Shown in pieces: positions 31,337 through 31,927 of a DNA stretch of 64,000 nt (positions are counted from its first letter, which is position 1; the number at the start of each line of letters is the position of its first letter). The DNA comes from Eledone cirrhosa (taxonomy: Eukaryota). The position numbers and the translations under genes were made by a program. The notes below the pieces were generated by a model. The model did not search any database, had not been told where the DNA came from, and was given only the letters and a program-made list of their open reading frames with translations. The DNA lies in NCBI GenBank assembly GCA_964016885.1, contig OZ024751.1, forward strand, positions 28,086,001 to 28,150,000. Direction: 5' to 3'.

Positions 31337-31927
31337 ACCAGAGAGAGATAGTGTGCCATCAATAAAGCAGCGAAAACCACCAGTGTATGGAATCTATAAT
31401 CTATGGCAGGCAGGGTAGACACACAATAATTAAAAATATAAATTAAAATATATATACGCACCTCTATAACTATATAACACACGTACAAATCCAAAGAGAT
31501 CTGTTTCGCCAGGAAGTTGTTGACTGAAATGAAATAGCCCATGGTTCATCAGCGTGTGTTAGGCTATACATTACAGACAACTCTAAGAGAATTTAAAGCG
31601 ACCGTCCAGCTACACGTGGGAGATTGATGTCAGCGTGTTTAGGGCAGTGAACCAGTGTTATCTGAGGGACGGGCTGCTAGAAAGGGCAGCCCAAAAACCA
31701 CTCAGAGAAGTGTGCTCAACCAAACAGAGAGTGAGGAAAGACTGTTATAAGGAGCGAAATATCAAGATAAATTAACGGAGCCATAGACTCTCGTTATTCC
31801 CCGTTACTCTCTCTGGTGTGTTACCTTTTCAACATATTGTATTTTAAAGAGCTCAGGATTCCTTTTCCTTTGAGCACATTATTGACAGGGAATAACGAGA
31901 GTCTATGGCTCCGTTAATTTATCGTGA
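31337..31927. mobile_element. family C HHR element with internal inversion, in (TA)n
   Basis: 31337-31801 reads on minus, 31807-31927 on plus; 36-bp inverted repeat 31766-31801 / 31888-31923; both parts are contiguous in the copy at 42236-42478. Confidence 0.8.
31475..31561 (-). ncRNA. type I hammerhead ribozyme (family C)
   Basis: Minus strand: TAACACACG-CTGATGA-ACCA...TGGC-GAAA-CAGATC TCTTTG GATTTG-TA-CGTGTGTTA; 9-bp stem I, 6-bp stem III, GUA site. Confidence 0.88.

What the first reader, a model, noticed from the sequence alone, without database searches (positions are those of the whole stretch)
31337..31927. Family C looks like one turn of a ~540-nt circular ribozyme RNA, inserted with an inversion
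Seen: the minus segment reads GGGAATAAC..TTTATC, then unique sequence, then an intact HHR (9-bp stem I), then ..CTCTCTCTGGT. The plus segment starts at CTCTCTCTGGT and returns to GGGAATAAC..TTTATC. The copy at 42236-42478 confirms the join. Together the two parts close a loop, with overlaps of 36 nt and about 11 nt. Inference: the template was a circular or head-to-tail multimeric RNA with one HHR per monomer, as in metazoan non-LTR retrozymes.
Basis: partly seen in the sequence, partly recalled or inferred. Interest (0 to 1): 0.8.

Follow-up and report, generated by a model that had tools for sequence, protein, structure and literature searches.

The report
Hammerhead retrozyme with Penelope two-arm footprint
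This is one copy of a 538-base, non-coding repeat with a predicted self-cutting RNA motif that has thousands of copies in this animal genome, and the shape of its insertions suggests that a Penelope-type jumping-gene enzyme likely copied it into DNA from both sides of a break, probably by running round a small RNA circle, although no such RNA has been seen.

Summary
The locus is two back-to-back arms (468 and 124 nt) of a circularly permuted 538-nt hammerhead repeat (2,325 exact hits of one 20-mer). It is not one inverted turn. Arms end at two fixed sites 83-87 nt apart, in (AT)n. Head-to-head insertions pair one site with the other in 71 of 92 junctions, against 3 same-type on inspection: the Penelope 'tail at one end' signature. 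Arms read through the hammerhead cut site and reach 4.4 turns. Both arms and successive turns carry the same subfamily variants. So it is a new family of metazoan non-LTR retrozyme, likely mobilised by a Penelope-like enzyme. A circular template is the best reading (about 0.55), but an uncleaved linear multimer is not excluded: no RNA run was listed, one pre-set test failed to replicate, some long arrays grew by local duplication, and no autonomous partner was found. This copy's hammerhead has an A·C mismatch where G-C is canonical. The scan has noted the same footprint before in 310-, 422- and 468-nt families of this genome.

The parts
31337..31804 (-). Long arm, 468 nt, unit positions 78 -> 538 -> 11; carries the hammerhead; its 3' end falls 25 nt short of the family's site 36
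31475..31561 (-). Type I hammerhead motif: stem I 31561-31553/31483-31475, CUGAUGA 31552-31546, long loop II, GAAA 31507-31504, predicted cut after 31484; A.C at 10.1-11.1
31672..31691 (-). Small hairpin whose first 17 nt are shared with an otherwise non-alignable ~655-710-nt hammerhead family, at a similar place between the 3'-end sites and the hammerhead
31805..31806 (.). Head-to-head junction of the two arms (2 nt)
31807..31930 (+). Short arm, unit positions 1 -> 123, ending at the family's fixed site 123; site 36 lies at about 31842; 31843-31930 is the 'tail'
31195..31336 (.). (AT)n target on the left
31931..31943 (.). (AT)n target on the right, followed by an unrelated 649-nt-unit repeat
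42232..42478 (-). Second, one-armed copy: about unit position 413-424 -> 123, no hammerhead, ends at site 123 in (AT)n

Best explanation
The locus is a two-armed insertion of a 538-nt, non-coding, hammerhead-bearing repeat family (a non-LTR retrozyme) that was likely written into an (AT)n tract by a Penelope-like reverse transcriptase/endonuclease, which would prime both cut DNA strands on one RNA, probably a circle, at two fixed internal sites 83-87 nt apart. Shown by sequence: the permuted unit, the two fixed 3' ends, the one-of-each rule in two-armed insertions, the (AT)n target, read-through of the hammerhead cut site, arrays up to 4.4 turns, and shared variants between arms and turns. Inferred: transcription of loci with two or more hammerheads, self-cleavage to a monomer, ligation to a circle, two-ended priming by a Penelope-type enzyme dimer, rolling synthesis, and joining of the two growing cDNAs by short microhomology.
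For: Fixed ends: 123 arms of the positional set end at 29-42 (61) or 115-125 (62), and 112 of 123 run into (AT)n. One-of-each rule: 42 of 52 junctions and 29 of 40 in an independent set; autonomous GIY-YIG elements of this genome show the same one-ended tail (about 30-62 nt; L148, L150, L158, L270). Literature: two internal RT start sites bounding the tail, both strands cut and extended, AT-rich targets (PMC11167929); tail at one end, inverted 5'-truncated copy (PMC8557442). No pile-up at the hammerhead cut: 5 of 35 and 1 of 29 arms stop there, so cleaved linear monomers were not the template. One template per insertion: at 45 subfamily sites arms differ at 77/919, turns at 34/336, separate loci at 45%; background 5%. 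No turn-indexed marks shared between loci: 58 same-turn pairs against 54.2 expected of 141; 254 differences at 4,739 sites between turns, almost none recurrent. 13 of 274 locus-private variants are in every copy of their insertion, 6 in 3-4 copies, 4 spanning both arms. Two-hammerhead loci able to release a monomer exist (L011, L068, L220-L229). At least 150 GIY-YIG matches with RT ORFs up to 1,096 aa are in the genome.
Against: No RNA was examined. The pre-set test for displacement of the enzyme's own cDNA was positive in the first set (8/13 vs 3/18) but not in the replication (5/13 vs 6/12). Only 1 of 210 positionally sampled arms reaches two turns, and the A.C subfamily to which this copy belongs reached at most 2.1 turns in what I fetched. 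L220 and L222 show later local duplication, and 33 variants are shared by a subset of turns. A generous chance estimate for private variants in all copies is 6.5 against 13 seen. Concordance of arms also follows if one master was active at a time. The A.C or A-U pair at 10.1-11.1 departs from the conserved G-C (PMC4209133), and 8 of 9 predicted Xenopus retrozyme dimers did not cleave in vitro (10.64898/2026.07.22.740005). In the anole Penelope, uncleaved RNA is the dominant substrate in vitro (PMC11167929). No autonomous partner with shared ends was found in 51 GIY-YIG loci.
Confidence: 0.55

Rival explanations
1. Same Penelope-type two-ended insertion, but the template is an uncleaved linear transcript of a genomic partial-tandem or tandem copy; the hammerhead is weak or inherited from a Penelope pseudo-LTR, and arrays lengthen by local duplication.
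For: Penelope elements form permuted partial tandems without a known circle (PMC8557442; PMC11167929, where hammerhead mutants still insert). Most arms are under 1.6 turns. Non-canonical 10.1-11.1 pair. Local duplication in L220 and L222. The displacement test did not replicate.
Against: No turn-indexed differences recur between loci. Private variants fixed across turns and both arms. Most multimers are star-like in their turn distances (L223-L225, L227-L229). 5' truncation should shorten linear templates each generation.
Confidence: 0.33
2. The template is a cleaved linear monomer and multi-turn arms arise by end-to-end jumping of the reverse transcriptase at the hammerhead cut site.
For: Would also give head-to-tail repeats of one variant; a few arms begin near position 400 (L010, L030, L090).
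Against: No excess of 5' ends at the cut; 1 of 13 pooled arms that reach the second cut stops there; the cut-site columns are conserved across copies.
Confidence: 0.06
3. A LINE-mobilised SINE-like element with L1-type twin-priming inversion, or a DNA-level satellite fragment.
For: The window copy alone (11-nt overlap at the break) looks like a twin-priming inversion.
Against: The inverted arm has its own fixed end in 71 of 92 junctions; ends run into (AT)n with no poly(A); no A-box or B-box match in one unit examined; copies are dispersed, mostly under two units.
Confidence: 0.04

Closest known systems
Metazoan non-LTR retrozymes (Cervera and de la Pena 2020, PMC7229834; Li, Clavereau and Pollet 2026, 10.64898/2026.07.22.740005)
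   Same: One type I hammerhead per unit, head-to-tail copies, GC under 50%, no ORF, thousands of copies, co-existence with Penelope-like elements; Penelope mobilisation from a circle was proposed there.
   Different: Unit of 538 nt is above the 150-450 bp range of the 2020 paper (inside the 51-972 bp range of the 2026 preprint); mostly dispersed 0.1-1.6-turn two-armed insertions, not long arrays; long stems III and loop II; A.C or A-U at 10.1-11.1; no RNA evidence here.
Penelope-like elements with GIY-YIG endonuclease and their non-autonomous derivatives (Craig et al. 2021, PMC8557442; Frangieh et al. 2024, PMC11167929)
   Same: Partial tandems, inverted 5'-truncated arm, tail at one end only, (TA)n targets, two internal start sites; non-autonomous Chlamys elements with multicopy head-to-tail insertions are described.
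   Different: Tail of 83-87 nt against the usual 30-40; no ORF; no homology found to a pseudo-LTR of an autonomous family among 51 loci.
Other hammerhead repeat families of this genome noted by this scan (310, 422, 468 nt; e1-8668911, e1-8665316, e1-8667645)
   Same: Described with the same two-arm, two-site footprint (unchecked AI notes).
   Different: Different sequence (no look-alike by sequence); longer unit and tail, older (about 5% pairwise at invariant sites), shorter arrays.

Membership tests
Metazoan non-LTR retrozyme | Type I hammerhead motif in each unit | tested here: met
   Core complete in 67 of 86 aligned copies; stems I and III paired in nearly all; 10.1-11.1 non-canonical
Metazoan non-LTR retrozyme | [quoted passage not shown] 2026) | tested here: met
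   Met in the family (11 of 20 long loci hold 2-4 intact-core hammerheads; some on separate arms); not met at the window locus, which has one
Metazoan non-LTR retrozyme | Non-coding, GC under 50% | tested here: met
   Longest stop-free frame 70 aa in one doubled unit; GC 0.40-0.42 in 10 units
Metazoan non-LTR retrozyme | Unit of a few hundred bases | tested here: met
   512-557 nt in 28 natural turns; above the 150-450 range of PMC7229834, inside the 51-972 range of the 2026 preprint
Metazoan non-LTR retrozyme | Self-cleavage and expression as linear and circular monomer RNA | not testable with these tools
   No RNA holder listed; needs bench work
Metazoan non-LTR retrozyme | Target-site duplications longer than 4 bp when present; no primer-binding site or polypurine tract | tested here: inconclusive
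   Ends lie in (AT)n, which hides duplications; PBS and PPT not searched
Non-autonomous Penelope-like element | Inverted 5'-truncated arm with a tail at one end only | tested here: met
   71 of 92 junctions pair site 36 with site 123
Non-autonomous Penelope-like element | Tail of 30-40 bp | tested here: not met
   83-87 nt; an autonomous family here has about 62 nt
Non-autonomous Penelope-like element | Insertion into AT-rich or (TA)n targets | tested here: met
   112 of 123 ends
Non-autonomous Penelope-like element | Sequence similarity to the pseudo-LTR of an autonomous family | tested here: inconclusive
   None in 51 GIY-YIG loci, a small part of 10,595 candidates
Autonomous Penelope-like element | RT plus GIY-YIG ORF | tested here: not met
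   No ORF in the unit; Penelope ORF pieces near 6 of 108 family loci are separate insertions or, in L089, a truncated ORF joined at a palindrome

The most novel reading that the evidence does not exclude
The insertions record a Penelope enzyme dimer priming both strands of a DNA break on one circular retrozyme RNA, one strand always at site 36 and the other at site 123, and rolling round it for up to four turns; the hairpin shared with a second, non-alignable family, 68-83 nt 3' of the second start site in both, is the handle by which the enzyme recognises these circles.
Probability: 0.3. Interest if true: 0.72.

Novelty: new member of a known kind. Interest (0 to 1): 0.47.

Why it matters
How animal retrozymes get back into DNA is proposed, not shown, in the papers I read (PMC7229834 Discussion; 2026 preprint), and how Penelope elements build their tandem/inverted, one-tailed insertions is called undefined (PMC8557442 passages). 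This short, high-copy family gives counts that bear on both: a near-strict one-of-each rule for the two start sites and one template variant per insertion. It names a small RNA and two exact start sites for the existing in vitro Penelope assay. The class itself is known, and the circle is still inferred.

Tried and rejected
Rfam at gathering score: no hit in the window. RNA runs: no RNA holder listed; says nothing on expression. Runs X1-X3 are contigs of one sample and may be the assembly's source. A first hammerhead scan that required a paired 10.1-11.1 found nothing; that exposed the A.C pair. Autonomous partner: BLAST, profile and end-motif searches of 51 GIY-YIG loci found only inserted family copies and the shared hairpin; L089 is a chimera with a truncated GC-rich Penelope ORF. 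Pre-set self-displacement test: 8/13 vs 3/18 (p 0.014) in the first set, 5/13 vs 6/12 (p 0.84) in the replication, pooled p 0.10; dropped; both arm types stop often at unit positions 60-135, which either model can explain. Higher stop rate in the second turn (11 per 1,073 nt vs 50 per 12,135 nt) is likewise not discriminating. snRNA-type promoter: the shared 17-mer is not in 330 nt upstream of 6 U6 and 4 U2 genes except one 5-mismatch hit inside an inserted repeat; no A-box or B-box match in one unit. A direct genome-wide count of two-hammerhead loci was not obtained, so their number is open. Four loci (L032, L040, L048, L059) were dropped as duplicates and L226 as an apparent segmental duplicate of L224 before counts.

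Full report
Observation. The window lies in a 3.0-Gb animal genome (G000:C11). The stretch 31337-31930 is two arms joined head to head: a minus arm 31804->31337 and a plus arm 31807->31930. The copy at 42232-42478 crosses the join. The hammerhead core is complete, stem I has 9 bp in this copy, but the pair closing stem II is A.C. Among 86 aligned family hammerheads, 67 have a complete core; 10.1-11.1 is A.C in 59, A-U in 18 and G-C in 4; stem I varies mainly by A-U/G-U exchange, with 3 and 2 double changes at two pairs. PMC4209133 (passages read) calls G10.1-C11.1 highly conserved, so activity cannot be assumed.

The family. Positions are on one natural 538-nt unit (L013; hammerhead core at 332, cut after 400). 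A 20-mer has 2,325 exact hits and a hammerhead 24-mer 721, with 0 in the reversed controls. I studied 30 best matches, 74 loci taken in order along contig C1 (78 less 4 duplicates), 60 further C1 loci in order (60 of 61 places listed beyond the first set) and sets chosen for length. Natural turns are 512-557 nt in 28 cases, GC 0.40-0.42; circular folds are 56-63% paired with z from -1.6 to -5.2 (10 units, 12 shuffles each). No frame exceeds 70 aa in the unit checked.

Insertion anatomy. In the 74-locus set, 61 arms end at 29-42 (40 at 36, 12 at 40) and 62 at 115-125 (55 at 123); 112 of these 123 run into (AT)n. Of 52 head-to-head junctions 42 pair a 36-type with a 123-type end; in the second set 29 of 40. 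On inspection L090 is one more mixed case, and L039 (short/short), L072 and L328 (long/long) are exceptions; the rest have one arm ending elsewhere. Junctions show 0-6 nt of overlap or short fillers in most cases. This is the Penelope signature: PMC8557442 (passages read) describes an inverted 5'-truncated copy and a 30-40-bp tail at one end only, and PMC11167929 (parts 1-2 of 4 read) shows two internal start sites bounding the tail, both strands cut and extended, and AT-rich targets. Autonomous GIY-YIG elements here show one-ended tails too. Read this way, the window's plus arm is a normal 123-type arm and the minus arm is probably a 36-type arm that lost 25 nt (inferred; 3 of the 30 best matches pair a 123-type end with an arm ending at 6-11).

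What was the template? Cleaved linear monomers would stop arms at position 401; only 5 of 35 and 1 of 29 stop there. 47 of 210 positionally sampled arms exceed one turn and 1 exceeds two. Length-selected loci reach 4.37 turns, and 31 of 31 intact-core hammerheads in those 20 loci have A-U, whereas A.C copies reached at most 2.1 turns. At 45 subfamily-diagnostic sites, separate loci differ at 45%, the two arms of one locus at 77/919 and successive turns at 34/336, over a 5% background. Turn-to-turn differences are 254 in 4,739 sites and hardly recur; recurrent variants fall in the same turn 58 times against 54.2 expected. 13 of 274 locus-private variants are in every copy of their insertion, 4 across both arms; a generous chance figure is 6.5 for all 13, but 6 of them are in 3-4 copies. 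These results fit one unit-length template copied repeatedly, most simply a circle, the cycle proposed in PMC7229834 (parts 2-4 of 6 read; supplement not read).

Results against. L220 has three identical turns beside a second arm 3-6% away, and L222 has an A-B-B-A pattern, so some long arrays grew or were homogenised later, or in assembly; 33 variants are shared by a subset of turns. A test written down beforehand did not replicate. Homogeneous linear multimers from one master at a time would also give concordant arms and turns. In the anole element, hammerhead mutants still insert (PMC11167929). In the 2026 preprint (parts 1-3 of 5 read; supplements closed) 8 of 9 predicted dimers did not cleave. 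No RNA could be examined. I put the circle at 0.55 and the uncleaved linear template at 0.33; Penelope-type mobilisation is common to both.

Partner and shared hairpin. The genome holds at least 150 GIY-YIG matches (10,595 candidates) and RT-bearing ORFs of 844-1,096 aa. None of 51 such loci shares ends with this family. The search did reveal a 17-nt hairpin motif shared with a second, non-alignable hammerhead family of about 655-710 nt (3,180 exact hits for both families). In both families the order is first end, second end, hairpin, hammerhead: here -155, -68, 0, +130 to +144; there about -145, -83, 0, +153 to +158. The motif is not in the U6 or U2 upstream regions checked. Because the anole enzyme needs RNA 3' of its start sites, the hairpin is a candidate recognition site; a promoter element or plain common descent are equally open. 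This is a lead, untested.

Comparison and verdict. It works like a non-autonomous Penelope passenger and meets the sequence criteria of a metazoan non-LTR retrozyme; cleavage and circular RNA are untested. It differs in a longer tail (83-87 nt), a non-canonical stem II base and mostly short two-armed insertions. Four literature searches listed no paper on this family or on a one-of-each count in retrozymes; subscription papers and unread supplements are not covered. PMC12910113 (passages) added nothing. My reading was fixed before the look-up of earlier notes, which describe the same footprint for other families in this genome; they are unchecked and not counted as support. Verdict: new member of a known kind, interest 0.47.

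Noticed in passing
window 31944-32677: A different tandem family abuts the short arm: 649-nt unit, 85-nt terminal redundancy, about 2,771 candidates in the genome, ending in (TA)n. It has only a degenerate CUGAAGA-AG-GAAA core and begins with an 11-nt word also seen upstream of several U6 and U2 genes.
   Followed up: partly
L149:1174-2506, L270:7267-8494, L240-L269: A large second hammerhead family (about 655-710-nt unit, tail about 62 nt, palindromic stem III, several subfamilies) shares the 17-nt hairpin motif.
   Followed up: partly
window 2983 (-), 3002 (+), 16806 (+), 50642 (-), 33209 (-), 22294 (-), 6284 (-): Further type I hammerhead motifs of at least four other families in the window; the same motifs recur near Penelope loci elsewhere.
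   Followed up: no
L089:1784-3301 (-): A family arm is joined at a short palindrome to a GC-rich Penelope ORF cut off inside its GIY-YIG domain.
   Followed up: partly
L081:1554-2085; L061:1506-1854: Arms with an internal re-start or short tandem re-copy (87-nt and about 200-nt steps) near the 3'-end sites.
   Followed up: no
L139, L151, L270: Autonomous Penelope-like families whose 3'-end sites lie just upstream of the start codon; my scan found no hammerhead there.
   Followed up: no
window 29240-30300 (-): Fragments of a LINE-type reverse transcriptase frame, judged by eye from the ORF list.
   Followed up: no
L149:7718-9501: A third family as a direct trimer with about 500-nt spacing and one hammerhead per unit.
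   Followed up: no
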